64,000 nt of DNA from an uncultured Planctomycetales bacterium (GTDB taxonomy: Bacteria; Omnitrophota; Gorgyraeia; Zapsychrales; JANLHA01), in contig CAZAXH010000008.1 of the NCBI GenBank assembly GCA_964489065.1, positions 130 to 64,129 on the forward strand, given 5' to 3'. A program made the position numbers and the translations under genes. Shown here piece after piece: positions 27,458 to 60,222 of the stretch. The notes under the pieces were generated by a model that ran no database searches, had not been told where the DNA came from, and was given only the letters and a program-made list of their open reading frames with translations. Numbering within the stretch: position 1 is the stretch's first letter; each line of letters starts with the position of its first letter.

Positions 27458-29235
27458 TCCTGCAATCGTTATACGAGTATTATCAGAGAAACAAAGGAAG
27501 ATTACCGCCCAAGGGTTTTCAGATTCAGGATATAAAATTTGTCATTGAAATAGACGAGGATGGACGGTTTTTAAATCTGGTTGATAAACGTGAAGGCAAA
27601 AAGGGAAAGCCGTATCTGTTGCCAAAGGCAAAGACCAGATCTGGTTCCAACTCTTACCAGACGACGTTTCTTTTATGGGATCATCACGGTTATCTGTTGG
27701 CTCATCCCAAGGAAGAATCTCCCAAGGCTGTCGAGATGGCTCAGAAACAGAAGACTACTTTTATCGCAGCTCTAGGAAGTCTCCCCGATACACTAAAGAC
27801 CGATAAAGGTGTCGCGGCTGTATTAAAGTTTTATGAGAAAGATGAATGGAAGAAAGTCAAAGAGCAGCCAGCTTGGCCTGACTGTGCCCGGCTGGCAGGT
27901 TGTAATATGACGTTTCAATTGGCAGGCGATGATTGTCTTGTTCCTGAACGGGCAGCTGTCAGGTTTTATCAGTCTTCAATCTCCGATGAAGACAGCCCTG
28001 AAGATGCAGAGGATAAGGGTAAAAGCATGTCTGGGATATGTTTGATAACCGGCAAAAAGGACTTTGTAAAGAGACTTCACTCGCCGACCCCTGTCTTGGG
28101 TTCCCGGCCGAACGCTAAGATACCCGGTTTTCAGAAGAATTCAGGATTTGATTCCTATGGTAAGGAGCAGGCATTCAATGCCCCTGTTTCTTCGGACGCG
28201 GAGGCCGCGTATACTACGGCGCTTAAATATCTAATCTCGTCGGAAAGTAATAAAGTCATAATCAGCGATACAACGATCGTCTTCTGGGCTCAGAAGACGC
28301 TTGAGGCGTTTGACCTTGAATCGAATTTTGTCTGGTTTTTCAAATCGGACAAGGATGACACTGAGAGAGGTGTTAACGCAGTCAAGGCCCTGTTTAATGC
28401 TGTTGAGAGCGGGCGTCTGCCGGTGGACGAGGATAACAGGTTTTTTGTCCTGGGACTCGCGCCGAACGCGGCGCGTATTTCTGTCAGATTCTGGAAGGCA
28501 GGGACGATTAAAGAATTTGCTGAAAAAATATATCAGCATTTTATTGATTTTGAAATTACGCGTCCTGTTCAGGATAAATACGAATATTTATCGCTGTACC
28601 AAATCCTCGGCGCGACAGTGTTGGATTACAAAATGGACAATGTCCCGCCGAATCTTGCCGGAGCGGTTGTCAGCAGTATTCTGGATGGTACGCCGTATCC
28701 GCGCACACTCTTGCATCAATGCATGCGTCGCATTCGTGCGGAACAGTCAAAGAAAGATTCGCGCACTGGTAAGTCGATTCAGAATGTCAATCGAATACGA
28801 GCATCAATTCTTAAAGCTTGTCTTAATCGGTTTAATCGAATTCATAACCCTCAAACCAAGGAGGTTCTCGTGTCTCTAGATAGAACAAACACCGACACAG
28901 GATACCGTGTGGGGCGGCTGTTCGCGGTTTTGGAAAAAATTCAGGAGGAGGCCAATCCCGGTATCAACACAACCATCCGCGACCGATTTTATGGTGCTGC
29001 TTCGTCAACACCAGTTACGGTTTTTCCCAGGCTTTTAGGACTTAAGAATCATCATCTGCCTAAATTGTCGCTGGGTCGCAAGGTGAATATGGAAAGAGAG
29101 ATTCAGGATATTATCGGTGAGATTAAAAGTTTCCCATCGCATCTGACCCTTGACCAGCAGGCCATGTTCGCGATTGGTTATTACCATCAGCGGCAGGCCT
29201 TTTTTGTGTCTAAAAAGGATTTGAATAACGAATAA
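27454..29235 (+). CDS. cas8c: Cas8c (Csd1) large subunit, type I-C
   Basis: 593 aa between cas5c and cas7c with overlapping start; family-typical size and position. Confidence 0.85.
   Translation: MILQSLYEYYQRNKGRLPPKGFQIQDIKFVIEIDEDGRFLNLVDKREGKKGKPYLLPKAKTRSGSNSYQTTFLLWDHHGYLLAHPKEESPKAVEMAQKQKTTFIAALGSLPDTLKTDKGVAAVLKFYEKDEWKKVKEQPAWPDCARLAGCNMTFQLAGDDCLVPERAAVRFYQSSISDEDSPEDAEDKGKSMSGICLITGKKDFVKRLHSPTPVLGSRPNAKIPGFQKNSGFDSYGKEQAFNAPVSSDAEAAYTTALKYLISSESNKVIISDTTIVFWAQKTLEAFDLESNFVWFFKSDKDDTERGVNAVKALFNAVESGRLPVDEDNRFFVLGLAPNAARISVRFWKAGTIKEFAEKIYQHFIDFEITRPVQDKYEYLSLYQILGATVLDYKMDNVPPNLAGAVVSSILDGTPYPRTLLHQCMRRIRAEQSKKDSRTGKSIQNVNRIRASILKACLNRFNRIHNPQTKEVLVSLDRTNTDTGYRVGRLFAVLEKIQEEANPGINTTIRDRFYGAASSTPVTVFPRLLGLKNHHLPKLSLGRKVNMEREIQDIIGEIKSFPSHLTLDQQAMFAIGYYHQRQAFFVSKKDLNNE
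28870..29235 (+). CDS. cas11c: Putative internally translated Cas11c small subunit (in-frame within the cas8c 3' end)
   Basis: In-frame GTG at 28870 preceded by a perfect RBS AAGGAGG (28858-28864, 5-nt spacer); predicted product 121 aa, the expected size of Cas11c produced by internal initiation in I-C cas8c genes. Confidence 0.45.
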   Translation: MSLDRTNTDTGYRVGRLFAVLEKIQEEANPGINTTIRDRFYGAASSTPVTVFPRLLGLKNHHLPKLSLGRKVNMEREIQDIIGEIKSFPSHLTLDQQAMFAIGYYHQRQAFFVSKKDLNNE

Positions 29236-29267
29236 TAACTTTATCATTCAGGGAGGAGATAGGTACC

Positions 29268-30185
29268 ATGACAACACCACTCACAAACCGTTACGACTTT
29301 GTTTTGTTTTTTGACGTACAGGACGGAAACCCCAACGGCGACCCCGATGCCGGTAACCTGCCGCGCATTGACGCGGAGACCGGCATGGGGTTGGTAACGG
29401 ATGTCTGCATTAAGCGAAAGGTGCGGAATTATGTGCAGATAGTCAAAGAAGGAAATGTCCCCTTTGATATTTTTGTGAAATCCAAAGAATTTTCCGGTCT
29501 AGAAACCGTTTTAAATAAGTTGATTCGAGATGGGTATCAAGAGATAGGCATTGATTTGGAGGCTGACAAGACAAAAGACGGAGAAAAAAGAAAAAGTAAA
29601 GGTGGAGCTCAAGGGGAAGAGGTCAACGAAGGCCGTCGGCACATGTGTTCGAAGTTTTTTGATATTCGTACTTTTGGAGCTGTTATGAGCACTGGTCCTA
29701 ACGCTGGACAAGTACGAGGGCCTGTTCAAATAACCTTTGCGAGATCTATTGAGCCTTTAGTTAGTTTGGAGCATGCGTTAACTGTTTGCGCTGCAAGGTC
29801 GGAAGATAAGAGCTACGAAGAGCAAGTTGGAATACAAGGTCGAAAATACACCGTTCCTTATGGCCTTTATCGCGTTCATGGTTTTGTGTCTGCTCATCTG
29901 GCAGCCCAGACAGGGTTTTCCAAGGAAGATTTAAATTTGTTCTGGGAGGCTTTGCAGAAAATGTTTGATCACGATCATTCCGCGGCCCGCGGCCTTATGA
30001 CAACACGGGCGCTTATAGTTTTTGAACATGGTACTGCTTTGGGCACAGCGAGTGCGGCATCTCTCTTTGACCGGGTGGAAGCCAAACGTGTTACTGAAGG
30101 CCCGGCCAGGAAGTTTAGCGATTACCAAATTTTGCTGGATAACCAGCCTGTCGTTGAATTACCAAAAATTGTCCGGGTGGGATAA
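29268..30185 (+). CDS. cas7c: Cas7c (Csd2) backbone subunit, type I-C
   Basis: N-terminus RYDFVLFFDVQDGNPNGDPDAGNLPRID is the Csd2/Cas7 signature. Confidence 0.9.
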   Translation: MTTPLTNRYDFVLFFDVQDGNPNGDPDAGNLPRIDAETGMGLVTDVCIKRKVRNYVQIVKEGNVPFDIFVKSKEFSGLETVLNKLIRDGYQEIGIDLEADKTKDGEKRKSKGGAQGEEVNEGRRHMCSKFFDIRTFGAVMSTGPNAGQVRGPVQITFARSIEPLVSLEHALTVCAARSEDKSYEEQVGIQGRKYTVPYGLYRVHGFVSAHLAAQTGFSKEDLNLFWEALQKMFDHDHSAARGLMTTRALIVFEHGTALGTASAASLFDRVEAKRVTEGPARKFSDYQILLDNQPVVELPKIVRVG

Positions 30186-30189
30186 TTTT

Positions 30190-30822
30190 ATGTTCTCCGA
30201 AGACAATCTTATTCAGCTTTCGGCTTTACAGCATTTTGTGTATTGCCCCCGGCAGTGCGCGCTGATCCACATCGAGCAGGTGTGGGTGGAAAATATGTTC
30301 ACGGCCGAAGGCAGGATCATGCATGATAAAGTGCATGAAGAGAGAGTGGAATACCGGGAAGGCGTCAAAATAGAGCGCGGCATGTTTCTTCGCTCGTTGG
30401 AGCTGGGCCTCATTGGTAAAGCAGATGTGGTGGAGTTTCATAGCGCTGCCGGCGGGGCTTGGCTTCCTTTTCCGGTAGAGTATAAAAGGGGAAAGCCCAA
30501 AAAAGACTCTTGCGACATGGTCCAGTTGTGCGCCCAGGCTTTCTGCCTGGAAGAGATGCTTAACGTAAAAATAGGAAAAGGCGCCTTGTATTATGGCCGC
30601 ACGCGGCATCGGCATGAAGTTGTTTTCGATGACGATTTGAGGGCCGTTACCCGTAACGCCGCATCCCAGGTGCGGGCGTTTCTTGAAAAGGGAGAAACGC
30701 CGTTCCCGGAATACTCGCCCAAGTGCAAGGCCTGCTCTATGCTTGCGGTATGCTTGCCGAAAGTCATGGGCCGGCATCAGTCTGTAACCTGTTACCTGGA
30801 GGAGCAACTGAAAGACCCGTGA
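30190..30822 (+). CDS. cas4: Cas4 RecB-like exonuclease with C-terminal Fe-S cysteines
   Basis: LQHFVYCPRQCALIHIE nuclease start, and a C-terminal Cx2C cluster (KCKACSMLAVC); follows cas7c by a 4-bp gap. Confidence 0.88.
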   Translation: MFSEDNLIQLSALQHFVYCPRQCALIHIEQVWVENMFTAEGRIMHDKVHEERVEYREGVKIERGMFLRSLELGLIGKADVVEFHSAAGGAWLPFPVEYKRGKPKKDSCDMVQLCAQAFCLEEMLNVKIGKGALYYGRTRHRHEVVFDDDLRAVTRNAASQVRAFLEKGETPFPEYSPKCKACSMLAVCLPKVMGRHQSVTCYLEEQLKDP

Positions 30823-31850
30823 AGAAATATTTAAATACTTTATATGTCACCACTCAAGGGGCCTATCTGTCGAAAGAGGGTGAAACGGTGGTTGTGAAGG
30901 TGGAAGAAGAAAAGCGCCTGCAAATCCCTGTCCATACCCTCGACGGAATCGTGTGTTTCGGGCAGGTGGGAATGAGCCCGTTTTTGATGGGGCATTGCGC
31001 CGAGAACAACGTGGCCGTTACTTTTTTAACCGAGTATGGCCGGTTTTTGGCAAGCCTGCGAGGGAAGGTTTGCGGTAATGTGCTGCTTCGGCGCCAGCAG
31101 TACCGCAAAGCGGACGATCCTGCCTTTTCGGCAGAGGTCGCGCGCAGCATTGTCCGGGGCAAGATCGCTAATGCCCGGGCTGTATTGCAGCGAAGATTGA
31201 GGGACCATCCCGAGAAAAATAATACTCCCGATGTCAAACAGGCCTCGGGGCGGTTGAGTTGTTCTCTGGATAAACTGACCCGGCCGCTTGACCTAGATAT
31301 GATCCGGGGCATAGAAGGCGAATGCGCGCACACGTATTTCAGTGTTTTTAATGATCTGATCGTCGCGCAAAAAAATGACTTTATTTTTGAGGAGCGTAAC
31401 CGCCGGCCGCCGCTGGACCGGGTGAATTGTCTTTTGTCTTTTATTTATACTTTGGTTATGCATGATGTGCGTTCCGCGCTCGAAACTGTAGGGCTTGATC
31501 CTGCCGTCGGGTTTTTGCATCGCGACCGGCCCGGCCGGCCTGGGTTGGCTTTGGATATGTTGGAAGAATTCCGGCCGTTTATGGCGGACAGGTTGGTCTT
31601 GTCTTTGATTAACCGGGAACAGGTGCAGGCCAAGGGCTTCATGCAGTCGGAATCGCGTGCCGTCACAATGGATGATGAGACCCGAAAAAGCATTCTTGTG
31701 GCCTATCAGAAAAGGAAGCAGGAAGAAATAACGCATCCCTATTTGCAGGAAACCGTGCCGGTAGGGCTTTTGTTTTATATCCAGGCATTGCTCATGGCAC
31801 GTTTTCTCCGGGAAGACATAGACGGCTATCCTGTATTTATCTGGAAATAA
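30819..31850 (+). CDS. cas1: Cas1 integrase
   Basis: GTG start overlapping cas4 stop; LNTLYVTTQGAYLSKEGETVVVK N-terminus and conserved Cas1 core. Confidence 0.9.
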   Translation: MKKYLNTLYVTTQGAYLSKEGETVVVKVEEEKRLQIPVHTLDGIVCFGQVGMSPFLMGHCAENNVAVTFLTEYGRFLASLRGKVCGNVLLRRQQYRKADDPAFSAEVARSIVRGKIANARAVLQRRLRDHPEKNNTPDVKQASGRLSCSLDKLTRPLDLDMIRGIEGECAHTYFSVFNDLIVAQKNDFIFEERNRRPPLDRVNCLLSFIYTLVMHDVRSALETVGLDPAVGFLHRDRPGRPGLALDMLEEFRPFMADRLVLSLINREQVQAKGFMQSESRAVTMDDETRKSILVAYQKRKQEEITHPYLQETVPVGLLFYIQALLMARFLREDIDGYPVFIWK

Positions 31851-31861
31851 GAAGGTGTCCC

Positions 31862-32152
31862 ATGCTGGTGTTGATCAGTTATGATGTAAAAATGGACGAC
31901 AGCGGTGGACCCCGGCGGTTACGCCGGGTGGCAAAGGCCTGCAAAAATTTTGGCCAGCGGGTGCAGTATTCTGTCTTTGAATGTAACGTAGATCCGGCCC
32001 AATGGGCCAAACTGCGCCAGCAACTGATTGATGAAATCGATTTGAAAAAAGACAGCCTCCGGTTTTATTTTTTAGGCTCCAACTGGAGACGGCGGGTTGA
32101 GCACATGGGGGCCAAGGAACCTGTTGACCTGGAAGGGCCGCTTGTCGCGTAG
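31862..32152 (+). CDS. cas2: Cas2
   Basis: MLVLISYDV...RVQYSVFEC classic Cas2; 96 aa. Confidence 0.92.
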   Translation: MLVLISYDVKMDDSGGPRRLRRVAKACKNFGQRVQYSVFECNVDPAQWAKLRQQLIDEIDLKKDSLRFYFLGSNWRRRVEHMGAKEPVDLEGPLVA

Positions 32153-32339
32153 TAATCTGCCGTGCGAACCATGAGAGCGTGTGCTGTATGCGGGACGTTC
32201 GCAGGGGAGACATGTTCTTTGACAACAATAATTTATTTCAATCCGATATATAATTTGTTTGTTTGATCGCAGCAAATCCGCCAAGGTTCGCGGAAATAGA
32301 AGTTTTAGTTATTGGTGTTGTAACAGATAGAAGAAGACA
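32153..32339 (+). promoter_or_regulatory. CRISPR leader (AT-rich) between cas2 and the first repeat
   Basis: AT-rich 187 bp (ttgacaacaataatttatttcaatccgatatataatttg...) immediately upstream of repeat 1; the degenerate repeat is at the distal end of the array. Confidence 0.7.
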
Positions 32340-33763
32340 GTCGCGCCCTTCGCGGGCGCGTGGATTGAAACTTTGCCGTTCAGAATAAAAAACGAGGTCG
32401 GGAAAGGTCGCGCCCTTCGCGGGCGCGTGGATTGAAACACGGGCAATCTGGAGATTTTGTGCATTTGTTTGGTCGCGCCCTTCGCGGGCGCGTGGATTGA
32501 AACAGGGGTAGCGCGCGCGGATGGTAAAGATGGTAAAGGTCGCGCCCTTCGCGGGCGCGTGGATTGAAACCTTGGAGGACGCTTGTCCATTATAACTGAT
32601 ACTGGTCGCGCCCTTCGCGGGCGCGTGGATTGAAACTTGTCCGCTCGGATGTGCGGATTTTGCGCAAGCTGTCGCGCCCTTCGCGGGCGCGTGGATTGAA
32701 ACTATCTATAAAAAGGAGGTAAAAAATGGGTCATATGTCGCGCCCTTCGCGGGCGCGTGGATTGAAACCTAATATCGCAACACTTTCGCCGGCGGAAAAA
32801 CTGTCGCGCCCTTCGCGGGCGCGTGGATTGAAACTTAAAAAAAGAGGTGAGGCCGATGAAGAAATAAGTCGCGCCCTTCGCGGGCGCGTGGATTGAAACA
32901 ACTTCATGGTCGTCGTCGATGTTGAGCGGAGACTGTCGCGCCCTTCGCGGGCGCGTGGATTGAAACTGGCGAACAACCTTATGGTTGTTCTGGTGGAGGC
33001 GTCGCGCCCTTCGCGGGCGCGTGGATTGAAACCAGCGCCGAGCGTGTTGCTCCGACCTGACGATGTCGCGCCCTTCGCGGGCGCGTGGATTGAAACACAG
33101 CGCGATCGCAGGCATGGGATAATTCATCGTGTCGCGCCCTTCGCGGGCGCGTGGATTGAAACGGCGAGTATGAAATACTCGTCAAAGCAGAAATCAAAGT
33201 CGCGCCCTTCGCGGGCGCGTGGATTGAAACGTAACAGACTTCGGTTTGCTATTGTTGGTTAGAGGGTCGCGCCCTTCGCGGGCGCGTGGATTGAAACTCA
33301 TCAGGAGTATCGCGCGCGGATGGTAAAGATGGTCGCGCCCTTCGCGGGCGCGTGGATTGAAACCGTCGCCCGGCGATTGTGTATCTCCTCACGCACGGTC
33401 GCGCCCTTCGCGGGCGCGTGGATTGAAACGACGCCGACACAAAAACTAAAAAATTAAACATTAAGTCGCGCCCTTCGCGGGCGCGTGGATTGAAACTTTA
33501 ATGCGTTTCAATTCTTTGTGCAGCCCCATGTCGCGCCCTTCGCGGGCGCGTGGATTGAAACCTGCACATGATTAAGAGCCAAAGCAACGCCCTGAGCGTC
33601 GCGCCCTTCGCGGGCGCGTGGATTGAAACTATCAAGGGTGTGTACTAGCTTGTCCTGGTGTGTCAGTCGCGCCCTTCGCGGGCGCGTGGATTGAAACGTC
33701 TATGGCTGGTAGGCTAGGCTGCCTAGGTACTGTCGCGCCCTTCGCGGGCGCGTGGTGATAACA
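32340..33763 (+). CRISPR. Type I-C CRISPR array: 22 repeats (21 intact plus 1 degenerate terminal), 21 spacers of 32-36 bp
   Basis: Repeat GTCGCGCCCTTCGCGGGCGCGTGGATTGAAAC (32 bp) with ~66-67 bp period. First repeat at 32340; terminal repeat at 33732 is degenerate (…GCGTGGTGATAACA). Confidence 0.97.
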
Positions 33764-38133: not shown

Positions 38134-39714
38134 ATGCAAGACAAGTTGCCGGATTCCATTAACACCCAGGATTTCGTTCCGTTGTTTGAGCGTATCGAAT
38201 ATGAAGAGAAACATTTTTTTATCACCGGGCGGGCAGGGACAGGGAAATCCACATTTCTGCTTTTTTACCGCCAGCGGACAGGCAAGAATCTGGTTGTCCT
38301 GGCGCCCACCGGCGTCGCCGCGCTGAATATCAAAGGGCAGACGATTCATTCTTTCTTTAATTTCCGGCCAGACATCACCGTTGACGGGGTCCGCACCGTG
38401 CGGTTCCACCCGAAGATGAAAAAGGTTTACCAAAATCTGGATACGATTATTATTGATGAAATTTCCATGGTGCGGGCCGATCTCCTGGACTGCATTGACG
38501 CGTTCCTGCGGATGTACGGGCCGCGGTCCGACAAACCGTTCGGCGGCGTGCAGATGATTTTTATCGGCGACTTGTATCAGCTGGCGCCGGTCGTGCGCCA
38601 GGATGAACAGTCCATTTTCAGCACGGTGTATGACAGCCCGTATTTTTTTTCGGCGAAATCCCTGCAAAAAATCGATATGCATTATGTTGAGCTCGAGCAG
38701 TCTTACCGCCAGAAAGACGACCGGTTTATCGACCTCCTGAACCGGATCCGCACCAACGCCGTGGAACAGGAGGATATCGACGCGTTCAACGAGCGGTATC
38801 AGCCGGATTTTGAGCCGGATATGGATAAATTTTTTATTTACCTGACGACCACCAACCGTCTCGCCGACCAGATCAACGAACGCCGGCTGAACGATATCGA
38901 CCGCAATTCATTTTCCGTGGAAGGCGTGTTGAAAGGCGAGTTCGACACCAAATTCCTGCCGACGCACGCGAATCTTGATTTAAAAATCGGTTCGCAGGTC
39001 ATGCTCCTGAATAATGACACGGAGAGGCGCTGGGTGAACGGCAGCATAGGAAAAATCCTTGACCTTTTTTTCGAGGGGGAAACACCGGTCTGTATTCTTG
39101 TTGAATTATCCGGGGGGCGCAAGGTGGAGGTCACGCCGTTCATCTGGGAGCTGTTTCAGTTTTATTATGATGAGGAGACCGAAACCATTGAAGCGCGCAC
39201 CGCAGGCTCTTTTCAGCAGTTTCCGCTTAAGCTGGCCTGGGCCGTGACGATTCATAAAGGCCAGGGCAAGACTTTTGACCATGTTATTGTGGATATCGGG
39301 GAAGGGACATTTTGTCACGGGCAGCTTTATGTCGCCTTGAGCCGCTGCACGACCTTGGAGGGGATCGTGCTCAAACGGCCGATTTCCCGTAAAGACGTTT
39401 TTATGGATGCCCGGATCGCTGAATTCTTGACCCAATTCCAGTACCAGCAGGCCGCCGCGCGGTTCCCGTTAAAGAAGCGCCAGGCGATCATTGAAACGGC
39501 CTTAACCCGGAATCAGACGCTCGAAATCACCTATTTGAAAGAAAATAACCAGAAGTTTTTACGCCGGGTTATTCCCCGGGTTTTACGGCAGGTGGAACAC
39601 AAGGGTGAGCCGTGCCTGGGGCTTGAGGCCTTTTGCCTAGACCGGCAGGCGAACTGGGTGTTCCGTTTGCCGTGTATTACGGATATTAAAGTTGTGGACC
39701 GCGAGTCGGTTTAA
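38134..39714 (+). CDS. PIF1-like / RecD-like SF1 DNA helicase (AAA_30 type) with C-terminal extension
   Basis: Walker A FFITGRAGTGKST, Walker B IIIDEISMV, and motifs TNRLADQINE and TIHKGQGKTFDHVIV typical of PIF1/RecD family. Confidence 0.8.
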   Translation: MQDKLPDSINTQDFVPLFERIEYEEKHFFITGRAGTGKSTFLLFYRQRTGKNLVVLAPTGVAALNIKGQTIHSFFNFRPDITVDGVRTVRFHPKMKKVYQNLDTIIIDEISMVRADLLDCIDAFLRMYGPRSDKPFGGVQMIFIGDLYQLAPVVRQDEQSIFSTVYDSPYFFSAKSLQKIDMHYVELEQSYRQKDDRFIDLLNRIRTNAVEQEDIDAFNERYQPDFEPDMDKFFIYLTTTNRLADQINERRLNDIDRNSFSVEGVLKGEFDTKFLPTHANLDLKIGSQVMLLNNDTERRWVNGSIGKILDLFFEGETPVCILVELSGGRKVEVTPFIWELFQFYYDEETETIEARTAGSFQQFPLKLAWAVTIHKGQGKTFDHVIVDIGEGTFCHGQLYVALSRCTTLEGIVLKRPISRKDVFMDARIAEFLTQFQYQQAAARFPLKKRQAIIETALTRNQTLEITYLKENNQKFLRRVIPRVLRQVEHKGEPCLGLEAFCLDRQANWVFRLPCITDIKVVDRESV

Positions 39715-47239: not shown

Positions 47240-47956
47240 ATGCTTTTTTCTGATTTTTTTAAAAAATGTTTTTTCCGTCCGCCTCAACCGGCCCAACCTG
47301 AACGAGAGGCCGATGCCACGGAGCCGGAAGAGTCGAAGTCCGGGGCAGCCGCTACGCCGGTAACTCCGGCGCAGCCGTTGCCGGAAAAGGGCGTGGCCAC
47401 CCCGGTTGTGCCGGCAGAACCTTCCTCTGTTGCGCCGGCGGCTTCGGAGAGCGAGCCGGTCCAGGGACCGCTCCCGGAGCCTTCACCGCTCGGGCCGGCC
47501 CCTGCGGTAAAAGCATCAGTCAAAAAGGTCTATTTCCTGGGGGGCAGCCAGGAGAAGCTTAATCAGAGGCTTCAGGATGAGTTGAAGAAGATGGGGTTCT
47601 CGTGGATCGATTTGTCTGCGGTTTATATGGAACGGGCTTTGGATGAAATTATGCGGAGCAACCCGGATGTCTTTTTTTCCGTGGTCGTCTTGTCCGGAGA
47701 TGAATTTGTTTACGATAAAAACAGCAAGCCATCGCAGGCCCGGGTTTGTTCCAAGCAAGATATTGTCTTTAAGCTGGGGTATTTGATCGGCCACCACGGG
47801 AAGAGCCACTGTTTTGTGCTTTATAAAGAACAAAAAAGTTTTGCACTGCCAACCAGTTTGATCCACGGTATTTTTACCGTGCTGGATGACGATGTCCGTT
47901 GGAAAGACATGTTGAGATCCCGTCTGGTCGGAGCCGGGTATTCTGTTCCGTGTTGA
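47240..47956 (+). CDS. TIR-like nucleotide-binding domain protein (COG4271/PF10137-like) with Pro/Ala/Glu-rich N-terminal linker
   Basis: KKVYFLGGSQE ... FSVVVLSGDEF ... QDIVFKLGYLIGHHGKSHCFVLY parallels the KVFIGSSSE ... FAIVLLTPDD ... RDNVIFELGLFIG pattern of the TIR-like family; starts 4 bp after mtaB stop. Confidence 0.55.
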   Translation: MLFSDFFKKCFFRPPQPAQPEREADATEPEESKSGAAATPVTPAQPLPEKGVATPVVPAEPSSVAPAASESEPVQGPLPEPSPLGPAPAVKASVKKVYFLGGSQEKLNQRLQDELKKMGFSWIDLSAVYMERALDEIMRSNPDVFFSVVVLSGDEFVYDKNSKPSQARVCSKQDIVFKLGYLIGHHGKSHCFVLYKEQKSFALPTSLIHGIFTVLDDDVRWKDMLRSRLVGAGYSVPC

Positions 47957-55230: not shown

Positions 55231-55503
55231 ATGTCACGGAAAAAACGTTTGTGGTTTGGCGGGATTCTGGTTTTCGTGCAGTTACTGATAATATTGAGCC
55301 TGTCCCTCGTTGGCCCCAAAACACCCATAACTCCCGTTAAAGAAGCAGATGCTCAATGTATGACTTTTTGGCTGAGTGCCGCCAATAACGCTGTGCCCAC
55401 ATGTCCCAGTGGTACTCTTTTGGGGTATGCATATACTGGCATAGTGGCGGTGTATGGAGGAACGGCAACTCGATACGTCGGATTATGCGCAAGGGATTTG
55501 TAA
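55231..55503 (+). CDS. Small secreted Cys-containing peptide, paralog A (90 aa precursor)
   Basis: Sec-type signal peptide; shared core TPVKEADAQC.xFWL.AANN.VP.C..G......Y..G.V.VYGG.A.RYV.LC with the adjacent paralog. Confidence 0.55.
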   Translation: MSRKKRLWFGGILVFVQLLIILSLSLVGPKTPITPVKEADAQCMTFWLSAANNAVPTCPSGTLLGYAYTGIVAVYGGTATRYVGLCARDL

Positions 55504-55535
55504 TTTATCGCCAATGTTCAAAAGGAGGCTGTTTG

Positions 55536-55802
55536 ATGTTAAGGGAAAAAATTCTTTGGTGTGCGGCAGCCCTAGTTATTCTTCAGTTATTTTTGGTTTT
55601 AGGCACGACCCTCACCGAAACGCAAACATCCGTAACTCCGGTGAAGGAAGCTGACGCGCAATGTATCCGATTCTGGCTTGATGCCGCCAACAACACTGTT
55701 CCGGGCTGCTCCGGCGGCGTCGTTGTCAGTTATGTCCAAAGCGGTACGGTTCCGGTCTATGGGGGCTCCGCGGCTCGATACGTCGCGTTGTGTTCCATCT
55801 AA
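55536..55802 (+). CDS. Small secreted Cys-containing peptide, paralog B (88 aa precursor)
   Basis: RBS AAGGAGG before the ATG at 55536; about 50% identity to paralog A including all three Cys positions. Confidence 0.55.
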   Translation: MLREKILWCAAALVILQLFLVLGTTLTETQTSVTPVKEADAQCIRFWLDAANNTVPGCSGGVVVSYVQSGTVPVYGGSAARYVALCSI

Positions 55803-55892: not shown

Positions 55893-57584
55893 ATGCTGAA
55901 TTTGCAGACAGCTTCTTCATTATTTCCTCAAACACAATTTAACAGGTTGAAAACTTCCCTTACAGTTTCTCTTCTGGCCAAGGTGATCCTGATTTTATTC
56001 CTTCTTGTGGCTGCTGGAATTTTCAGGTTTTACAATCTTGGCCTGTACGACCTGACCTTCGATGAACTCGGGACAGAAATGTACACTTTTCAGGCCGTGG
56101 ATAAAGTGGCACGTTTATCCGGGCAGAGCCATTTTACTGTTTTGTCCGAACAGATGAAAAATGATCCGCATTCTCCACTTTATTATTTTATTATTTATTA
56201 TTTCAGCAAATATGGGGGGGATGATGGGGCGCGTCTGCGCCTGTTATCGGTGATTTTGAGCCTGAGTACATGCTTGCTTTTTTTCTGTTTTTCGACACTG
56301 TTCCTTAACTTCCGCGGGAGCGTTCTGGGCATGGGCTTGCTGGCGATTCATCCCTTGCACATCTGGTATGCCCAGGAAGCCAGGATGTACGCGTCGGTCG
56401 GCTTTTTTGTCCTTTTGATGGCGACGATGTTTGTATTGGCGGTGCGTACAGATAAGATTCGGCTTTGGATCCTGTTCCTCGTGACAGGGGCGCTTGCTTT
56501 GGTGGCCAGTTATTTTACCGTTTTCTTATTAATAGCCATGGGGTTAGTCGTGTTGCTGCCCAATAACCGCCGTTATTTATGGAAATGGACTTTTTCGGTG
56601 ATAGGGATGGTTGTTATCCTCTTGTTGTTGCGGCCGATTTTTTTCAGCCAGTTTAACTTTGTAAAACACAGTTTCTGGATACCACAGCCTTCCTTTGTAA
56701 CCCTCTTCCTCACCCAAATGATTTTTCATCAGGGATTTTCGGCGACATGTTCCCAGTATTTTTCCGGCCTGATCCTGTTCTCCAGTCTTTTCGTCCTTGG
56801 GGTGTTATCTTTATTTTCTTTAAACCGCAAGAAAACGTTTATTCTGTTCATTTTTATCGCCGTCCCGTTCTCCTTGGCGTATTTTATTTCCAAGTATTAT
56901 GTCCCGATTTATATTCATCGGCAGCTAATGGTTTTTTCGCCTTTTTACTATCTTGGCATAGCCCAGGGAATAGAAAGGATTTTACCCCGCCGTTATGGGC
57001 CCCTAGTTTTTCTTCTAGCTGCGGCCCTGCTGTTAAGCAGCCTCCGGAATTATTATGCCGGGTATATGTTTTCCCATCCTTTTCGGGCGGATCTGCTCGG
57101 TGGCGTATATCCCAAAAAACGCTACCAGGAACTGTTCCGCTCTTTGAACCAGGCGGCCCTTAAGAACGATTCGCTGATTGCTGGCGACCTGCAGTCTTAT
57201 ATCTTATTGCGGGCCTATCTTGAAAGACAGGAGGGACGAGGGAATCTGTCCCCGGACAGGTTATGGTTCGTGTTCGCCCCGCAATATGTTTTTCAGTATG
57301 ATCAGCGTTATATGGGTATTGATGCCCCTGTGAAACAACTGTCACCCTCCCAATTTAAAAATTTTTACGCCTATCAGTTGCCCCCGGACCGGGCGATCAC
57401 GATGCATCCTGCTCAGTTAAAGCCCATGACATTGGGACGATTATGGGTGGTGACCTCCAGTTGGGATATGGACAGATCCTTGGGAATGGATGCTGAAGAG
57501 CTTTTAATCCAATTAAGGCAGCTTTCTCATCGGCAGTCTTCTAGCTGTAAAGACGGTATTTGTGTTGACCTCTTTGCCCCCTGA
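55893..57584 (+). CDS. ArnT/PMT-like GT-C fold membrane glycosyltransferase, paralog 3
   Basis: 563-aa polytopic protein; N-terminal loop YDLTFDELGTEMY acidic motif; similar topology to the other two. Confidence 0.55.
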   Translation: MLNLQTASSLFPQTQFNRLKTSLTVSLLAKVILILFLLVAAGIFRFYNLGLYDLTFDELGTEMYTFQAVDKVARLSGQSHFTVLSEQMKNDPHSPLYYFIIYYFSKYGGDDGARLRLLSVILSLSTCLLFFCFSTLFLNFRGSVLGMGLLAIHPLHIWYAQEARMYASVGFFVLLMATMFVLAVRTDKIRLWILFLVTGALALVASYFTVFLLIAMGLVVLLPNNRRYLWKWTFSVIGMVVILLLLRPIFFSQFNFVKHSFWIPQPSFVTLFLTQMIFHQGFSATCSQYFSGLILFSSLFVLGVLSLFSLNRKKTFILFIFIAVPFSLAYFISKYYVPIYIHRQLMVFSPFYYLGIAQGIERILPRRYGPLVFLLAAALLLSSLRNYYAGYMFSHPFRADLLGGVYPKKRYQELFRSLNQAALKNDSLIAGDLQSYILLRAYLERQEGRGNLSPDRLWFVFAPQYVFQYDQRYMGIDAPVKQLSPSQFKNFYAYQLPPDRAITMHPAQLKPMTLGRLWVVTSSWDMDRSLGMDAEELLIQLRQLSHRQSSSCKDGICVDLFAP

Positions 57585-57611
57585 CTCCTCTTCTGGGGCC
57601 GACCGATTCGC

Positions 57612-57640
57612 TTGACATTAAATATAAGGAAAATTATAAT
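57612..57640 (+). promoter_or_regulatory. Perfect consensus sigma70 promoter (TTGACA-17 bp-TATAAT) upstream of the OLD-family gene
   Basis: TTGACA 57612-57617; TATAAT 57635-57640. Confidence 0.6.
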
Positions 57641-57731
57641 GCGGAAGTATATCGGAAGGCGGCCTTTGGTTTGTTCCTGGAGTGTGTTGGTAAAATATCA
57701 GAGATAACCTGCGTCAAGTGAGGGGAATTTC

Positions 57732-59702
57732 ATGAAATTAAAAAAGTTTAAAATAACCCATTATAAATCTATCGTAGACAGCGGCTATTGCTGTCTTTCC
57801 TCTGACCTGACGATTTTGCTGGGGAAAAATGAATCGGGGAAAACGGCTATTTTGGAGGCCCTGCGCGATTTTGACCGGCAAAGCATGTCAATCTCCGGGG
57901 ATGCCTTCCCGGTCAGTGGTAATGGGGACGAGCCTAAACTTGAAATGGTTTTTTCGATGAGGGGAGAGGAGTTGAAGTCCATTCAGGAAACAACAGGCAT
58001 AAAATTGGAAGGAAAAATATCCGATCATGTGCTTGAAAACGGCGTCGTGCTAGAAAAGGATTGCCGGGGTTCGTATGATTTAAAAGACGAAAAACTGGCG
58101 GGACTTCTTGAGGCAGCTAATCAGGGCCAACGCTATTTTATCCGCTGTGAAGAAAAAAAACTTGTTGAGCTTCTAAAAGGGTATTCTGTGCCTGATTTAA
58201 ACCTGGAGGCCCCGGTCCCGGTGATCCAAGACAGAGTGCAACAACTTTTTGTCACCATTAAATCCTTGCTGCCGCTGCTGAAGGACGAGAAGCTGCAGCA
58301 GGCGGTCATTGAGTCGCTGCGTTTTATTAAACAGGAGTCCAAAAATCTTCCGGAAAAAGAACAGGAAAGGGATGTGATGTCCCTCTTTTTAAACACAGTC
58401 GTTGAACGGCTGCCGCATTTTATCCTTTTTAATGAGTTTAACGGCATGCTGCCTTTTGAGATTGCGCTGGCTGACATAAAATCTAATCAGGCCGTCATGG
58501 ATTTCGCTAAGATTGCCCGGCTTGATATTGACAAGGTCATTGCCACCGAGGACACCCAGAAACGTTTAAATATCCTGAATCGTCATTCCGCCTGCATTAG
58601 CGGGGATTTTCTTAATTATTGGGGACAGAATAAAATGGAACTGGTCATCTGGCCGGAGGGGGATAAGCTGCTTTTTGGAGTTAAAGAATCCGGCAAGACT
58701 GAAATTTTTAAAGTGGAACAACGCAGTAAAGGTTTCCAGTGGTTTCTGTCCTTTTATCTTCGTCTGAACAGCCAGCGGGGGAGCAACAATATCATCCTCA
58801 TTGATGAGCCGGGAATGAACCTTCATGCCAAAGCCCAGTTAGAAATCATTAAAGTGCTTGAAAGCATGAGCGCCGAGGATAACCAGATTATTTTCAGCAC
58901 GCATTCGCCGTATCTGATCGATGCCCTGCGTCTTGACCGGCTTCGGTTAGTTGTAAAAGATGCGCAGAAGGGGAGCGTTATTGAAAGCAATCTGAGTGTC
59001 AATGCGGATAATGAAACCTTGATGCCGTTGGTGTCGGTTTTAAATATGAATTTAAACCAGAATTTGTTCGGGATTGATGACGGGCGCACGCATGTTATCG
59101 TAGACGGCCTGGCGAATTATTATTTCCTTGAAGGTTTGCGGATATGCATCAAAGATATTCCTTGGGGCCAATATCATTTTATCCCGTCTGCGGACCGGAC
59201 CAATGTCCGCCAGATCGCCTCTTATATGGTCGGGTGCGATATGCCGTTTAAAGTCGTCTTAGAGCATGACGCCGACGGCCAGGCCCTGGCCGTTCTCCTA
59301 AAAGACACTTTTGGGCTGGAGAACTCCCGTGTTATTTTTATCGGCCCGGTTTTGGGGGAGCGGTTTGAGGACCTTTTTTCCCGGGAGGACTTTTTTAAAT
59401 ATTTCTTGGAAGAGCCTTTTGAGGATATGCCTCCCGGTTCTAATTCGAATTTTTCTGAAAATAAGAATCGTGTTTGGCTTGCCAAAAAATTTTCAGAACG
59501 CGCTACAAATCAACAGGATATTTTGACGCTATCTGACAAAACCCACACATCATTCCATAATTTTTCAAGGCAACTGCTCGGCGAACTCCCAGGGGAAGCC
59601 CCGGGCACTAAAAAGAAATCTTTGTTGTCTGAGATAAGGCGTTTCCCGTTCTTCCCCTTTCCTAAAAGAAGTCATGAGATGACGGAAACAATCAGGCCAT
59701 AA
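57732..59702 (+). CDS. OLD-family ATP-dependent endonuclease-like protein (ABC/AAA_15-21 ATPase N-domain plus C-terminal TOPRIM-like domain); candidate antiphage defence protein (class 1 OLD or fused PARIS AriA-AriB-like)
   Basis: P-loop LLGKNESGKTAILEAL; Walker B/D-loop IILIDEPGMNLH; H-loop FSTHSPY; C-terminal HVIVDGLANYYFLEG and VLEHDADGQ (DxD) consistent with TOPRIM; lower GC than flanks. Confidence 0.6.
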   Translation: MKLKKFKITHYKSIVDSGYCCLSSDLTILLGKNESGKTAILEALRDFDRQSMSISGDAFPVSGNGDEPKLEMVFSMRGEELKSIQETTGIKLEGKISDHVLENGVVLEKDCRGSYDLKDEKLAGLLEAANQGQRYFIRCEEKKLVELLKGYSVPDLNLEAPVPVIQDRVQQLFVTIKSLLPLLKDEKLQQAVIESLRFIKQESKNLPEKEQERDVMSLFLNTVVERLPHFILFNEFNGMLPFEIALADIKSNQAVMDFAKIARLDIDKVIATEDTQKRLNILNRHSACISGDFLNYWGQNKMELVIWPEGDKLLFGVKESGKTEIFKVEQRSKGFQWFLSFYLRLNSQRGSNNIILIDEPGMNLHAKAQLEIIKVLESMSAEDNQIIFSTHSPYLIDALRLDRLRLVVKDAQKGSVIESNLSVNADNETLMPLVSVLNMNLNQNLFGIDDGRTHVIVDGLANYYFLEGLRICIKDIPWGQYHFIPSADRTNVRQIASYMVGCDMPFKVVLEHDADGQALAVLLKDTFGLENSRVIFIGPVLGERFEDLFSREDFFKYFLEEPFEDMPPGSNSNFSENKNRVWLAKKFSERATNQQDILTLSDKTHTSFHNFSRQLLGELPGEAPGTKKKSLLSEIRRFPFFPFPKRSHEMTETIRP

Positions 59703-59841
59703 CGACATATTTTGCCCTTTGCTCCATGGCATATATCCCATGCCTGCCATAAATATTGGTGCGTAAATTAAAGGTTCATGTCTTTATTTTCTATTTGAAT
59801 TGAGATATAATTATTTTTCATGTAGATGTTTCCTGAGATAG

Positions 59842-59870
59842 GATGGCTTTTCAATTTTTGAAAAGCCATC
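59842..59870. promoter_or_regulatory. Perfect 29-bp palindrome (13-bp arms) immediately upstream of the small membrane protein gene
   Basis: GATGGCTTTTCAATTTTTGAAAAGCCATC. Confidence 0.5.
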
Positions 59871-59877
59871 ATGGAGT

Positions 59878-60222
59878 ATGATTAATTTACTTAAAATTCA
59901 AGAGGGGGCCATGTCAGACAAGCGCAATTTGAGAAAAACTCTTCAGCTAACAGTTGTTGTTTCCCTGGCGTCGTCCGTGGGAGCGTTTTTGATTCAAAGT
60001 CGCGCCAATACATTGACAAGTGCCTGCAGCTACTTGGATCCTGTCACCATCGATGTCGTTGCGGTTTTATTTGGTTTGTTTTTAGTGATTGACGGGCTAA
60101 ATGACATTTACCGCTATCGCCTCAGTGCGATCCAGGAACAGTGGCCCAAGAGTATCCGGGTCGCTATCGGAACCAGCATTCTGCTCATCCATATTATGCA
60201 GTTTTTCCACAAAAATATATAA
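59878..60222 (+). CDS. Hypothetical small membrane protein (2-3 TM)
   Basis: 114 aa with hydrophobic segments TVVVSLASSVGAFLI and VVAVLFGLFLVIDGL. Confidence 0.45.
   Translation: MINLLKIQEGAMSDKRNLRKTLQLTVVVSLASSVGAFLIQSRANTLTSACSYLDPVTIDVVAVLFGLFLVIDGLNDIYRYRLSAIQEQWPKSIRVAIGTSILLIHIMQFFHKNI

What the first reader, a model, noticed from the sequence alone, without database searches (positions are those of the whole stretch)
57585..59877. Single-gene OLD-family (ABC ATPase plus TOPRIM) candidate antiphage nuclease with perfect consensus promoter, in a low-GC insert
The protein has the AAA_15/21 P-loop (GKNESGKT), Walker B/D-loop (ILIDEPGMNLH) and H-loop (STHSP) motifs, and a C-terminal region with a TOPRIM-like DxD (LEHDADG). 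Its codon usage is AT-richer than the flanking core genes, and it sits behind TTGACA-17-TATAAT. No GajB-like helicase is adjacent, so it is not classical Gabija. The candidates are class 1 OLD or a fused PARIS (AriA-AriB) variant. It lies about 24 kb from the CRISPR locus, so this is a multi-defence neighbourhood.
Basis: partly seen in the sequence, partly recalled or inferred. Interest (0 to 1): 0.55.

Follow-up and report, generated by a model that had tools for sequence, protein, structure and literature searches.

The report
Solitary OLD-type ATPase, remodelled nuclease site
This is a real, stand-alone gene for an OLD-family ATPase–Toprim protein in an Omnitrophota bacterium, but it belongs to a derived branch where the nuclease site has decayed and a tethered C-terminal peptide was gained, so calling it an antiphage nuclease is not secure.

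Summary
The ORF (57732-59702, +, 656 aa), the quoted motifs and the TTGACA-17-TATAAT promoter are all present. The promoter is the only 12/12 match in 64 kb and is invariant in orthologues down to 59% protein identity.

The protein is an OLD-family homologue with three parts:
- an intact ABC ATPase;
- a helical insert;
- a C-terminal Toprim-plus-helical region.

Its best structural matches are Thermus scotoductus OLD (whole protein) and the Class 2 OLD C-terminal regions (C-terminal part). It is solitary: no helicase, AriB, HNH or reverse transcriptase gene is adjacent.

Three parts of the interpretation fail.
- It is not a low-GC insert. Its GC and GC3 equal those of its neighbours, and its position after a glycosyltransferase cluster is conserved.
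- The family's DxD aligns to E511-H-D513, not to D-A-D. At least three of six metal-ligand positions are changed (E→D, D→N, D→E), and probably a fourth (S→R).
- CRISPR-Cas lies 24.8 kb away, across housekeeping genes.

The new point is the clade. In 257 relatives, 177 are canonical (EDDDxE) and none of them has a tethered tail. A single Omnitrophota/PVC-restricted clade, which includes this gene, has a degenerate or deleted Toprim plus a linker and a basic-aromatic C-terminal peptide.

Novelty: a new variant of a known kind. Function, defence or domesticated, is unresolved.

The parts
57612..57640 (+). Sigma-70-type promoter, TTGACA-17-TATAAT (-35 at 57612-57617, -10 at 57635-57640)
   Evidence: 12/12 match. 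It is the only exact match in the window and none occurs in 100 shuffles. Both hexamers are invariant in 5 orthologous loci while the surrounding intergenic DNA diverges.
57641..57731 (+). 5' leader of about 85 nt, with the Shine-Dalgarno sequence GAGGGG at 57720-57725, 6 nt before the ATG
   Evidence: Read from the sequence. No Rfam family matches it. Leader length varies among orthologues.
57732..59702 (+). CDS, 656 aa plus stop: OLD-family ATPase-Toprim protein
   Evidence: Whole-gene dN/dS against orthologues is 0.05-0.12.
57732..58091 (+). ABC ATPase N-lobe (aa 1-120), including Walker A GKNESGKT (aa 31-38, nt 57822-57845)
   Evidence: AAA_15 covers aa 1-396. G31, K32, N33, E34, G36 and K37 are invariant in 38 homologues.
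58092..58586 (+). Helical insertion in the ATPase (aa ~121-285). It occupies the position of the OLD dimerisation domain.
   Evidence: The AlphaFold model shows helices 120-283 at pLDDT 82-93. Ts OLD has a dimerisation domain inserted in its ATPase (PMC7049728). Dimerisation itself was not tested.
58587..58991 (+). ABC ATPase C-lobe (aa 286-420): signature-like QRSKG (330-334), Walker B/D-loop LIDEPG (356-361, nt 58797-58814), H-loop STHSP (389-393, nt 58896-58910)
   Evidence: Q330, R331, S332, G334, D358, E359, P360, T390 and H391 are invariant. dN/dS is 0.02-0.05, the most constrained part of the gene.
59082..59411 (+). Toprim-fold core (aa 451-560) with a remodelled metal site: D458 and N462 (nt 59097-59117, 'IVDGLAN'), E511-H-D513 (inside LEHDADG, nt 59259-59279), R544 and E546
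   Evidence: The model shows a beta-alpha-beta-alpha-beta-alpha-beta pattern. Its top Foldseek hits are OLD C-terminal regions. The S478/E480 equivalence is inferred from motif position only. dN/dS is 0.11-0.19.
59412..59585 (+). C-terminal helical subdomain (aa 561-618), including invariant N571
   Evidence: The whole C-terminal region superposes best on Class 2 OLD C-terminal regions, which are Toprim plus a helical domain.
59586..59699 (+). Disordered linker and conserved basic-aromatic C-terminal peptide (aa 619-656; motif KKKSLLSEIRRFPFFPF at aa 627-643, nt 59610-59660)
   Evidence: pLDDT is below 50 over aa 622-656. The motif is conserved in orthologues, with tail dN/dS 0.05-0.15. Related tails such as KRRSLFAFLKK occur throughout the degenerate and Toprim-less clade and in no canonical relative.
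59703..59877 (+). AT-rich downstream intergenic region (GC 0.337) with a 13-3-13 palindrome at 59842-59870. No canonical intrinsic terminator was found.
   Evidence: The palindrome was not found in orthologous loci.

Best explanation
The gene encodes a solitary OLD-family protein of an Omnitrophota bacterium.

Domain order:
- an ABC-type ATPase with every catalytic motif intact;
- a helical insertion where OLD proteins carry their dimerisation domain;
- a Toprim-fold domain plus a helical subdomain;
- a disordered linker ending in a conserved basic-aromatic peptide.

It is transcribed from its own conserved consensus promoter. It has been inherited vertically at a fixed chromosomal position, directly after a glycosyltransferase/PMT_2 cluster.

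It belongs to a derived clade, restricted to Omnitrophota and PVC-labelled MAGs, inside a widespread canonical OLD-like family. The canonical relatives keep the two-metal Toprim site (E, D, D, D, S/A, E) and have no tail. Members of this clade have lost most of those ligands, or the whole Toprim domain, and all carry the tethered C-terminal peptide.

Inferred mechanism (not shown): an ATP-driven dimeric switch, as in other OLD proteins. Its output depends on the ATPase plus the tethered peptide, which would dock it either to the membrane in the manner of a MinD-like amphipathic helix or to a partner protein. Classical two-metal DNA cleavage would no longer be the main output. In this particular protein the metal-A positions are still acidic (D458, E511, D513), so a weakened or one-metal nicking activity remains possible. 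Whether the biological role is phage defence or a domesticated cellular function is open.
For: Family identity:
- Pfam AAA_15 and AAA_21. The best PADLOC models are Old, AriA, PtuA and GajA, all matching through the ATPase only.
- The profile of 38 homologues hits 6P74 (Ts OLD) at 3.5e-18 across the ATPase C-lobe and Toprim.
- The full-length model has pLDDT 82 and its top Foldseek hit is 6P74.
- The C-terminal model has pLDDT 84. Its top five hits are all OLD C-terminal regions, with probability 0.99-1.0 and TM 0.44-0.52.

Solitary and vertically inherited:
- Orthologues at 94, 76, 73 and 59% identity all lie after the same GT2-GT9-88aa-PMT_2 block.
- No conserved neighbour is found across the clade.
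- GC and GC3 equal those of the flanking genes.
- The promoter is invariant.

Remodelled site:
- The Ts OLD ligands are defined in PMC7049728.
- Direct alignments place E377/D381 on 'EGxxD' and D431/D433 on 'DxD'.
- The query reads D, N, E, D, R, E at the six positions.

Clade pattern:
- 177 of 257 relatives are EDDDxE and none of them has a tethered tail.
- Every tail-bearing protein is degenerate or Toprim-less.
- Toprim-less ATPase-linker-tail proteins exist: P0082, P0103, P0109 and P0115 (read), plus P0127, P0129, P0136 and P0141 (classified).
- A neighbour-joining tree built on the ATPase domain alone groups them into one clade, with the query nested inside.
- Among GTDB representative genomes this clade is found only in Omnitrophota and 'Planctomycetales' MAGs, whereas the canonical clade is spread over more than 12 phyla.

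Purifying selection acts on all parts, tail included.

Precedents: the Toprim domain is dispensable for YbjD/OldB phenotypes (PMC13261556). The vertically inherited OLD protein Cran1 has a non-defence role (PMC12796447).
Against: - No experiment bears on activity.
- The three metal-A positions remain acidic in six of the seven members of the query's own subclade, and the E to D and D to E exchanges could be compensatory. The Toprim may therefore still cut.
- The S478/E480 equivalence is inferred from motif position, not from a structural superposition.
- The role of the tail is unproven. Hydrophobic moments are high for the query (0.72, 99.5th percentile of its own 11-mers) but unremarkable for several relatives (0.34-0.45).
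- AlphaFold gives the tail no confident structure.
- The tree is neighbour-joining without support values.
- The tail and Toprim decay co-occur in one clade, so they count as one evolutionary event, not many.
- Distant relatives lie on 90 plasmids, and the wider family has the patchy spread typical of defence genes.
Confidence: 0.55

Rival explanations
1. Plain Class 1 OLD antiphage nuclease. A solitary ATPase-Toprim enzyme senses infection and nicks or cleaves nucleic acid using an acidic Toprim triad. The tail would be incidental.
For: The gene is solitary. Ts OLD is the best match by profile and by fold. Acidic residues are retained at all three metal-A positions, along with the E480 equivalent. 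The Toprim domain is under purifying selection, with omega 0.11-0.19. The wider family is patchy across phyla and occurs on plasmids. A strong constitutive-looking promoter is present.
Against: PMC7049728 states that the six ligands are conserved in all Class 1 homologues. Here three of the four directly aligned positions differ, and both alterable metal-B ligands are non-acidic (N462, R544). In the 59% orthologue the position equivalent to D433 is N. Sister lineages have lost the site or the whole domain. The query itself does not reach any Toprim Pfam model, even at E=10. The locus is syntenic over deep divergence and is not an island.
Confidence: 0.3
2. Domesticated OLD-family ATPase with a cellular, non-defence role, analogous to archaeal Cran1. 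It would be docked by its tail to the membrane, the envelope machinery or a replication or division factor.
For: The gene is vertically inherited at a fixed position next to envelope glycosyltransferases. The clade is restricted to one lineage. The nuclease site has decayed while the ATPase and tail are strongly conserved. The Cran1 precedent shows vertical inheritance together with a cell-cycle role.
Against: Relatives at 44% identity sit in unrelated contexts, so the glycosyltransferase linkage may be nothing more than synteny. The gene is not universal: only a handful of Omnitrophota representative genomes gave hits. There is no functional data. Toprim-independent defence is also possible, as with YbjD.
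Confidence: 0.3
3. Fused PARIS (AriA-AriB) variant: an AriA-type ATPase fused to a DUF4435 Toprim tRNA nuclease.
For: PADLOC AriA models score 1e-21 and 4.5e-20. The fused AriAB model matches aa 313-497 at 4.4e-14, which just enters the Toprim.
Against: The AriA models are essentially the generic AAA_15/AAA_21 profiles, and they match the ATPase only. DUF4435 matches 0 of 38 family members, whereas OLD-like_TOPRIM matches 17 of 38. The family profile hits PDB AriA only over residues 348-396. The top fold matches of the C-terminal region are OLD C-terminal regions, not AriB.
Confidence: 0.03
4. Housekeeping SMC/RecF/Rad50-like genome-maintenance ATPase that merely resembles OLD.
For: There are weak N-terminal matches to SMC_N, RecF and Rad50.
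Against: All of these fall below the curated cut-offs (SMC_N 22.7 against 40; RecF 22.3 against 172) and cover only the P-loop region, aa 1-77. Full-length matches by both profile and fold are to OLD.
Confidence: 0.02

Closest known systems
Class 1 OLD family nucleases (Thermus scotoductus OLD, PDB 6P74; P2 Old; Vibrio cholerae OLD; E. coli YbjD/OldB)
   Same: The gene is solitary, with no helicase, reverse transcriptase or AriB partner. The architecture is an N-terminal ABC ATPase with an inserted helical domain followed by a C-terminal Toprim. 6P74 is the best match by sequence profile and by whole-protein fold.
   Different: The Toprim metal ligands are said to be conserved in all Class 1 homologues, but they are altered here: E to D, D to N, D to E and, by inference, S to R. 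There is an extra helical subdomain after the Toprim, which Ts OLD lacks. There is also an extra disordered linker with a conserved basic-aromatic C-terminal peptide. The gene is vertically inherited in a conserved locus.
Class 2 OLD / Gabija GajA (Burkholderia pseudomallei and Xanthomonas campestris OLD C-terminal regions, 6NK8 and 6NJW; Bacillus cereus GajA)
   Same: The C-terminal region, a Toprim plus a helical domain, gives the top five fold matches. GajA chains are the next-best whole-protein matches after 6P74.
   Different: No UvrD-like GajB helicase lies downstream or anywhere nearby. The nearest helicase is a PIF1-like gene 18 kb upstream. The metal site is degenerate.
Canonical sister clade of the same family (about 615-aa proteins such as P0046, P0065 and P0067; Nitrospirales, CPR, Thermodesulfobacteriota and others)
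   Same: They are 39-43% identical over 93% of the length and share the same domain order. The ATPase motifs and the EDLF..DF..NS motifs are shared.
   Different: They keep E-D-D-D-S/A-E, match Pfam OLD-like_TOPRIM and end right after the last helix with no linker or tail. They are spread patchily over many phyla.
Cran1 (Sulfolobales OLD-family ATPase/nickase with a cell-cycle role)
   Same: It is an OLD-family protein that is inherited vertically within one lineage and is not obviously part of a defence island.
   Different: Cran1 is archaeal (clade U11) and is reported to be an active nickase. No relationship beyond family level was tested here, and Cran1 has no reported C-terminal tethered peptide.
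MinD-type C-terminal membrane-targeting amphipathic helix (comparison from my own knowledge of MinD, not tested here)
   Same: Both are short C-terminal segments of flanking Lys/Arg and paired Leu/Phe on a dimerising ATPase, for example RKPIFKLFGK and KRRSLFGLFRK against E. coli MinD KGFLKRLFGG.
   Different: The link is resemblance only. Hydrophobic-moment values are mixed. The query's version contains prolines (FPFFPF) and a 13-residue extension. No homology or membrane binding has been shown.

Membership tests
OLD family (general) | N-terminal ABC-type ATPase with Walker A, Walker B and H-loop | tested here: met
   AAA_15 at 5e-22 and AAA_21 at 3e-19. K37, D358, E359 and H391 are invariant in 38 homologues.
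OLD family (general) | C-terminal Toprim fold | tested here: met
   The family profile aligns through the Ts OLD Toprim. The top five Foldseek hits of the C-terminal model are OLD C-terminal regions, with probability 0.99-1.0. 17 of 38 family members reach Pfam OLD-like_TOPRIM. The query itself does not reach any Toprim model.
OLD family (general) | Helical dimerisation domain inserted in the ATPase | tested here: inconclusive
   A confident helical insertion at aa ~121-285 is predicted in the right place. Dimerisation was not modelled or measured.
Class 1 OLD nucleases | Isolated gene with no UvrD/PcrA/Rep-like helicase immediately downstream | tested here: met
   The downstream genes are a 114-aa ORF and a PAS histidine kinase. 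The same holds in orthologues and in relatives at 44% identity.
Class 1 OLD nucleases | Conserved two-metal Toprim ligands (Ts OLD E377, D431, D433 / D381, S478, E480) | tested here: not met
   The query has D458, E511, D513 / N462, R544, E546. Only two of the six are identical. The last two equivalences are inferred from motif position.
Class 1 OLD nucleases | Metal-dependent nuclease activity and anti-phage phenotype | not testable with these tools
   This needs biochemistry and phage challenge.
Class 2 OLD / Gabija | GajB (UvrD-like helicase) encoded directly downstream of GajA | tested here: not met
   No helicase lies within +/-10 kb. A PIF1-like helicase at 38134-39714 is about 18 kb away.
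Class 3 OLD (retron Eco8-type effector) | Adjacent reverse transcriptase and retron ncRNA | tested here: not met
   No reverse transcriptase domain appears among the genes +/-10 kb in the syntenic locus L001. No Rfam match occurs at 57500-60000. The NCBIfam retron_eff_Eco8 model scores 34.8 bits against a cut-off of 250.
Class 4 OLD / PARIS (AriA + AriB, or fused AriAB) | DUF4435-type Toprim (AriB), either as the next gene or as a fused C-terminus | tested here: not met
   DUF4435 matches 0 of 38 family members. No PADLOC hit is found on the C-terminal 237 aa. No AriB-like neighbour is present.
Septu PtuA | PtuB HNH nuclease partner, and a PtuA equivalog score | tested here: not met
   The NCBIfam PtuA model scores 42 bits against a cut-off of 500. 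No HNH gene is adjacent.
SMC/RecF/Rad50 housekeeping ATPases | Score above the family cut-offs over the head domain | tested here: not met
   SMC_N scores 22.7 against 40 and RecF 22.3 against 172. The matches are limited to the P-loop region.

The most novel reading that the evidence does not exclude
The gene represents an undescribed class of OLD-derived ATPases, confined to Omnitrophota and PVC-affiliated lineages. In this class the Toprim nuclease has become dispensable: it is degenerate in most members and deleted several times independently. The effector or targeting function has passed to a tethered C-terminal basic-aromatic peptide, such as an ATP-gated membrane anchor or a partner-docking motif. 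That would be a defence-type module exapted into a non-nucleolytic machine, parallel to Cran1 in archaea and to the Toprim-independent action of YbjD.
Probability: 0.35. Interest if true: 0.65.

Novelty: new variant of a known kind. Interest (0 to 1): 0.5.

Why it matters
Solitary (Class 1) OLD proteins are the least understood branch of a family that underlies Gabija, PARIS and some retrons. Two recent papers question whether their Toprim nuclease is always the effector, and even whether they always serve defence: YbjD/OldB, where the Toprim is dispensable, and Cran1, which has a cell-cycle role.

The relatives of this gene form a natural series:
- canonical site and no tail;
- degenerate site plus tail;
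- no Toprim plus tail.

That series could be used to ask what an OLD ATPase does without its nuclease. It also warns annotation pipelines that 'AAA_15 + Toprim-like' does not guarantee an active nuclease or a defence gene.

Tried and rejected
- Pfam and PADLOC scans of the C-terminal 237 aa alone found nothing, even at E=10. Homology of this region is visible only through family profiles and the fold.
- A profile of the C-terminal region alone against PDB sequences gave no significant hit. The linked ATPase-Toprim profile and Foldseek were needed.
- Rfam found nothing in the leader or the 3' region.
- A search for a conserved partner gene across the tail-bearing clade found none. Only subclade synteny appeared, plus one ~159-aa overlapping ORF shared by two close relatives, L012 and L016.
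- The cluster-member look-up for organism names returned no names.
- The hydrophobic-moment test of the tail as an amphipathic helix gave mixed values and is inconclusive.
- A literature search for OLD proteins with a membrane-targeting or amphipathic C-terminus found nothing relevant.
- A scan for the tail motif at the C-termini of other window ORFs found only this gene and one spurious antisense ORF.
- The low-GC island idea is rejected on GC and GC3 and on synteny.
- Fused PARIS, Gabija, retron, Septu and SMC/RecF memberships were each tested and not met (see the membership table).
- A beta-clamp-binding motif (QL[SD]LF, from my own knowledge) and an FtsZ-C-terminal-peptide-like motif were considered for the tail. 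Neither could be tested, and the clamp motif's Gln is absent.
Full report
**Observation**

The region holds a single long ORF at 57732..59702 on the + strand, 656 aa. All quoted motifs are present:
- GKNESGKT at aa 31-38;
- ILIDEPGMNLH at aa 355-365;
- STHSP at aa 389-393;
- LEHDADG at aa 510-516.

The promoter has TTGACA at 57612-57617, a 17-nt spacer and TATAAT at 57635-57640. It is the only exact match in the 64 kb window, and none occurred in 100 dinucleotide shuffles. I aligned the upstream regions of four orthologues at 94, 76, 73 and 59% protein identity. Both hexamers and their spacing are invariant, while the rest of the intergenic DNA and the leader length diverge. This is a phylogenetic footprint, not a chance consensus match. 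A GAGGGG Shine-Dalgarno sequence sits 6 nt before the ATG. No Rfam family matches the leader or the 3' region.

**What did not hold**

The gene has GC 0.454 and GC3 0.518. Its neighbours are indistinguishable:
- PMT_2-like gene: 0.459 / 0.535;
- 114-aa ORF: 0.441 / 0.522;
- histidine kinase: 0.447 / 0.483.

The whole 53-64 kb segment is at 0.42-0.47. The gene is therefore not a low-GC insert.

The CRISPR-Cas locus is real. It is type I-C, with Cas3, Csd1/Cas8c and Cas1, and its array lies at 32470-32967. It is 24.8 kb away. The interval carries radical-SAM/BATS, UbiE, UbiA, MenC-like, TPP-enzyme, Dus and MiaB-like genes, pilin-like genes and glycosyltransferases. Only a PIF1-like helicase (38134-39714) and a CAP12/Pycsar-type TIR protein (47240-47956) are conceivably defence-related. 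Calling this a 'multi-defence neighbourhood' is generous.

**Identity**

- Pfam gives AAA_15 (5e-22, aa 1-396) and AAA_21 (3e-19). SMC_N, RecF and the rest fall below their cut-offs and touch only the P-loop.
- The best PADLOC models are Old (3.6e-22), AriA, PtuA and GajA, and all match through the ATPase only.
- The C-terminal 237 aa alone match nothing in Pfam or PADLOC, even at E=10.
- The protein database holds many full-length relatives. The closest, at 94%, is annotated as Candidatus Omnitrophota. A group of about 615-aa relatives at ~40% identity carries Pfam OLD-like_TOPRIM.
- A profile of 38 homologues (A1) hits the Class 1 OLD nuclease of Thermus scotoductus (6P74) at 3.5e-18. The alignment runs from the Walker B region through the Toprim E and DxD motifs.
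- 17 of 38 family members match OLD-like_TOPRIM, and none matches DUF4435.
- AlphaFold with that alignment gives a model with pLDDT 82 and pTM 0.75. Its best PDB fold match is 6P74 (4e-14), followed by GajA and PtuA chains.
- A separate model of aa 421-620 (pLDDT 84) has OLD C-terminal regions as its top five fold matches. These are Burkholderia pseudomallei 6NK8 and Xanthomonas 6NJW/X/V, with probability 0.99-1.0 and TM 0.44-0.52. 6P74 follows at probability 0.96.

This is an OLD-family ATPase-Toprim protein whose C-terminal region, a Toprim plus a helical subdomain, looks most like that of Class 2 enzymes.

**Context**

The orthologues at 94, 76, 73 and 59% identity all lie directly after the same block: GT2, GT9, a small protein of about 88 aa, and a PMT_2-like membrane protein. 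Their downstream sides vary. Relatives at about 44% identity sit alone in unrelated housekeeping contexts. An all-against-all comparison of neighbours across 13 loci found no partner shared beyond the immediate subclade. There is no adjacent helicase, AriB, HNH or reverse transcriptase gene.

By the genomic-context criterion used in the literature (PMC7049728; PMC13261556), this is a Class 1 arrangement.

**The catalytic site**

Schiltz et al. (PMC7049728) define the Ts OLD ligands as follows:
- metal A: E377, D431, D433;
- metal B: D381, S478, E480.

They state that these residues are conserved in all Class 1 homologues. Direct alignments place E377/D381 on the family motif 'LLEGxSD' and D431/D433 on 'LDND'.

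| Ts OLD ligand | Query residue | Basis |
|---|---|---|
| E377 | D458 | direct alignment |
| D381 | N462 | direct alignment |
| D431 | E511 | direct alignment |
| D433 | D513 | direct alignment |
| S478 | R544 | inferred from motif position |
| E480 | E546 | inferred from motif position |

The metal-A positions remain acidic but with swapped side-chain lengths. Two of the three metal-B ligands are non-acidic.

**The clade pattern (the main new result)**

I tabulated the six positions in 115 homologues and then in 257 sequences, adding representatives from an exhaustive HMMER search (6830 hits at E≤1e-3).
- 177 sequences are canonical (E-D-D-D-x-E). They are about 600-630 aa long and end right after the last helix.
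- Two of these matched a loose tail regular expression, but by inspection the match lies within the terminal helix rather than in a tethered tail.
- Every protein with a disordered linker and a basic-aromatic C-terminal peptide has a degenerate site. Tail examples are KRRSLFAFLKK, RRRLFSFIKQK, RRRSFLNYLKE and KKNRWFFADK. Site examples are GDNNAE, QMENLE, SDNNVE and NDSRAE.
- A third form lacks the Toprim altogether. These proteins consist of the ATPase, an acidic or proline-rich linker and the same tail. They are P0082, P0103, P0109 and P0115, P0127, P0129, P0136 and P0141, and the loci L021, L023 and L039.

A neighbour-joining tree built on the ATPase domain alone puts all degenerate and Toprim-less proteins in one clade, apart from one probable fragment. 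This clade is separate from the canonical proteins. The query subclade is nested inside it, and Toprim loss occurs on several branches.

Among GTDB representative genomes, the derived clade was found only in Omnitrophota and in MAGs labelled 'uncultured Planctomycetales'. The canonical clade is scattered over Nitrospirales, CPR groups, Zixibacteria, Acidobacteria, Thermodesulfobacteriota, Alphaproteobacteria, Bacilli, Chloroflexi, Clostridia and others. Distant relatives at 23-30% identity occur on 90 plasmids and in one phage record.

The query's own tail, KKKSLLSEIRRFPFFPF followed by 13 residues, is a variant of the clade motif. It is conserved in the orthologues.

**Selection**

Against the orthologues, whole-gene dN/dS is 0.05-0.12. 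By region:
- ATPase C-lobe: 0.02-0.05;
- Toprim core: 0.11-0.19;
- C-terminal helices: 0.17-0.49;
- tail: 0.05-0.15.

dS is saturated for the most distant pairs, so those ratios were not computable and the ranges above come from the closer pairs. The Toprim domain is maintained in this subclade, though it is about three times less constrained than the ATPase. The tail is constrained despite being predicted disordered (pLDDT below 50).

**Mechanism**

Shown: an intact ABC ATPase, a Toprim fold, altered ligands, a conserved tail, a conserved promoter, and a solitary, vertically inherited gene.

Inferred: like other OLD proteins it probably dimerises through the helical insert, and it probably uses ATP binding and hydrolysis to gate its C-terminal part. 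In this clade the conserved output elements are the ATPase and the tethered peptide, not the nuclease site.

The tail resembles a MinD-type membrane-targeting helix, a comparison from my own knowledge. The hydrophobic-moment test was mixed, so a partner-docking motif is equally possible. Because D458, E511, D513 and E546 persist, weak or one-metal nicking cannot be excluded for this protein. In the 59% orthologue the D433 equivalent is N.

The biological role is open. The wider family looks like a mobile defence gene. This clade looks lineage-restricted and, in the query's subclade, syntenic, which recalls Cran1 (PMC12796447). The YbjD/OldB result, in which the Toprim is dispensable and the ATPase essential (PMC13261556), shows that loss of the nuclease does not by itself exclude defence.

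**Verdict**

- As 'an OLD-family gene', the finding is an ordinary new member.
- The remodelled site, and its membership of a tail-bearing clade that has shed the nuclease, make it a new variant of a known kind.
- I found no paper describing such tails on OLD proteins. The Cran1 study notes 11 uncharacterised OLD clades, and this one may be among them.
- Interest is 0.5.

Noticed in passing
window 24411-32967: A complete-looking type I-C CRISPR-Cas locus: Cas3 (HD plus helicase), a 241-aa ORF, Csd1/Cas8c, further cas-sized ORFs and Cas1. It is followed by a short array with the 32-nt repeat GTCGCGCCCTTCGCGGGCGCGTGGATTGAAAC, about 7 repeats by Tandem Repeats Finder.
   Followed up: partly
window 47240-47956 (+): A 238-aa protein with a CAP12/Pycsar-effector-type TIR domain (PF10137, 3.6e-9), about 10 kb upstream of the OLD gene. 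It is followed by two ORFs with no Pfam match. It could be a separate small defence gene. It is conserved in the 94% relative (start of L001).
   Followed up: partly
window 38134-39714 (+): A PIF1-like SF1 helicase (PF05970, 3.9e-30) embedded among menaquinone-pathway genes (UbiE, UbiA, MenC-like, TPP enzyme). It is not adjacent to the OLD gene, so it is not a GajB equivalent.
   Followed up: no
window 59842-59870: A perfect 13-3-13 palindrome, GATGGCTTTTCAA-TTT-TTGAAAAGCCATC, ending 7 nt before the ATG of the 114-aa ORF. No T-run follows it, so it is not a canonical terminator. The exact arms were not found in the orthologous loci. It could be an operator or an RNA hairpin.
   Followed up: partly
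window 55231-55503 and 55401-55802 (+): Two overlapping-frame small ORFs (90 and 133 aa) encode paralogous secreted or membrane-anchored peptides. They share the motif TPVKEADAQC..FWL.AANN.VP.C, and their homologues of about 88 aa are conserved at the same position in orthologous loci (L005 3634-3900, L007 3636-3908). Neither has a Pfam match.
   Followed up: partly
window 59878-60222 (+); L005 9525-9872; L007 9127-9438: A small 103-114-aa protein with hydrophobic segments is conserved downstream of the OLD gene in the subclade. In two relatives it is separated from the OLD gene by inserted genes (Ni-SOD, or a protein of about 210 aa). This reads as synteny rather than an operon partner. It has no Pfam match.
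   Followed up: partly
L012 2229-2711 and L016 4757-5230: In two relatives at about 44% identity (site type QMENLE), an ORF of about 159 aa overlaps the stop codon of the OLD-like gene by 4 nt, and the two ORFs are homologous to each other. This may be a lineage-specific partner. No equivalent exists in the window.
   Followed up: no
A1 columns for query residues E546-D547-L548-F549, D553-F554 and N571-S572: These C-terminal-domain residues stay invariant or nearly invariant in both the canonical and the degenerate clades, even where the other metal ligands are lost. In the canonical clade N571-S572 is followed by a Lys (NSKFLK). That Lys is not kept in the tail-bearing clade, and in the query it is N573. 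It could be the K562/R487-type catalytic residue, but this was not verified structurally.
   Followed up: no
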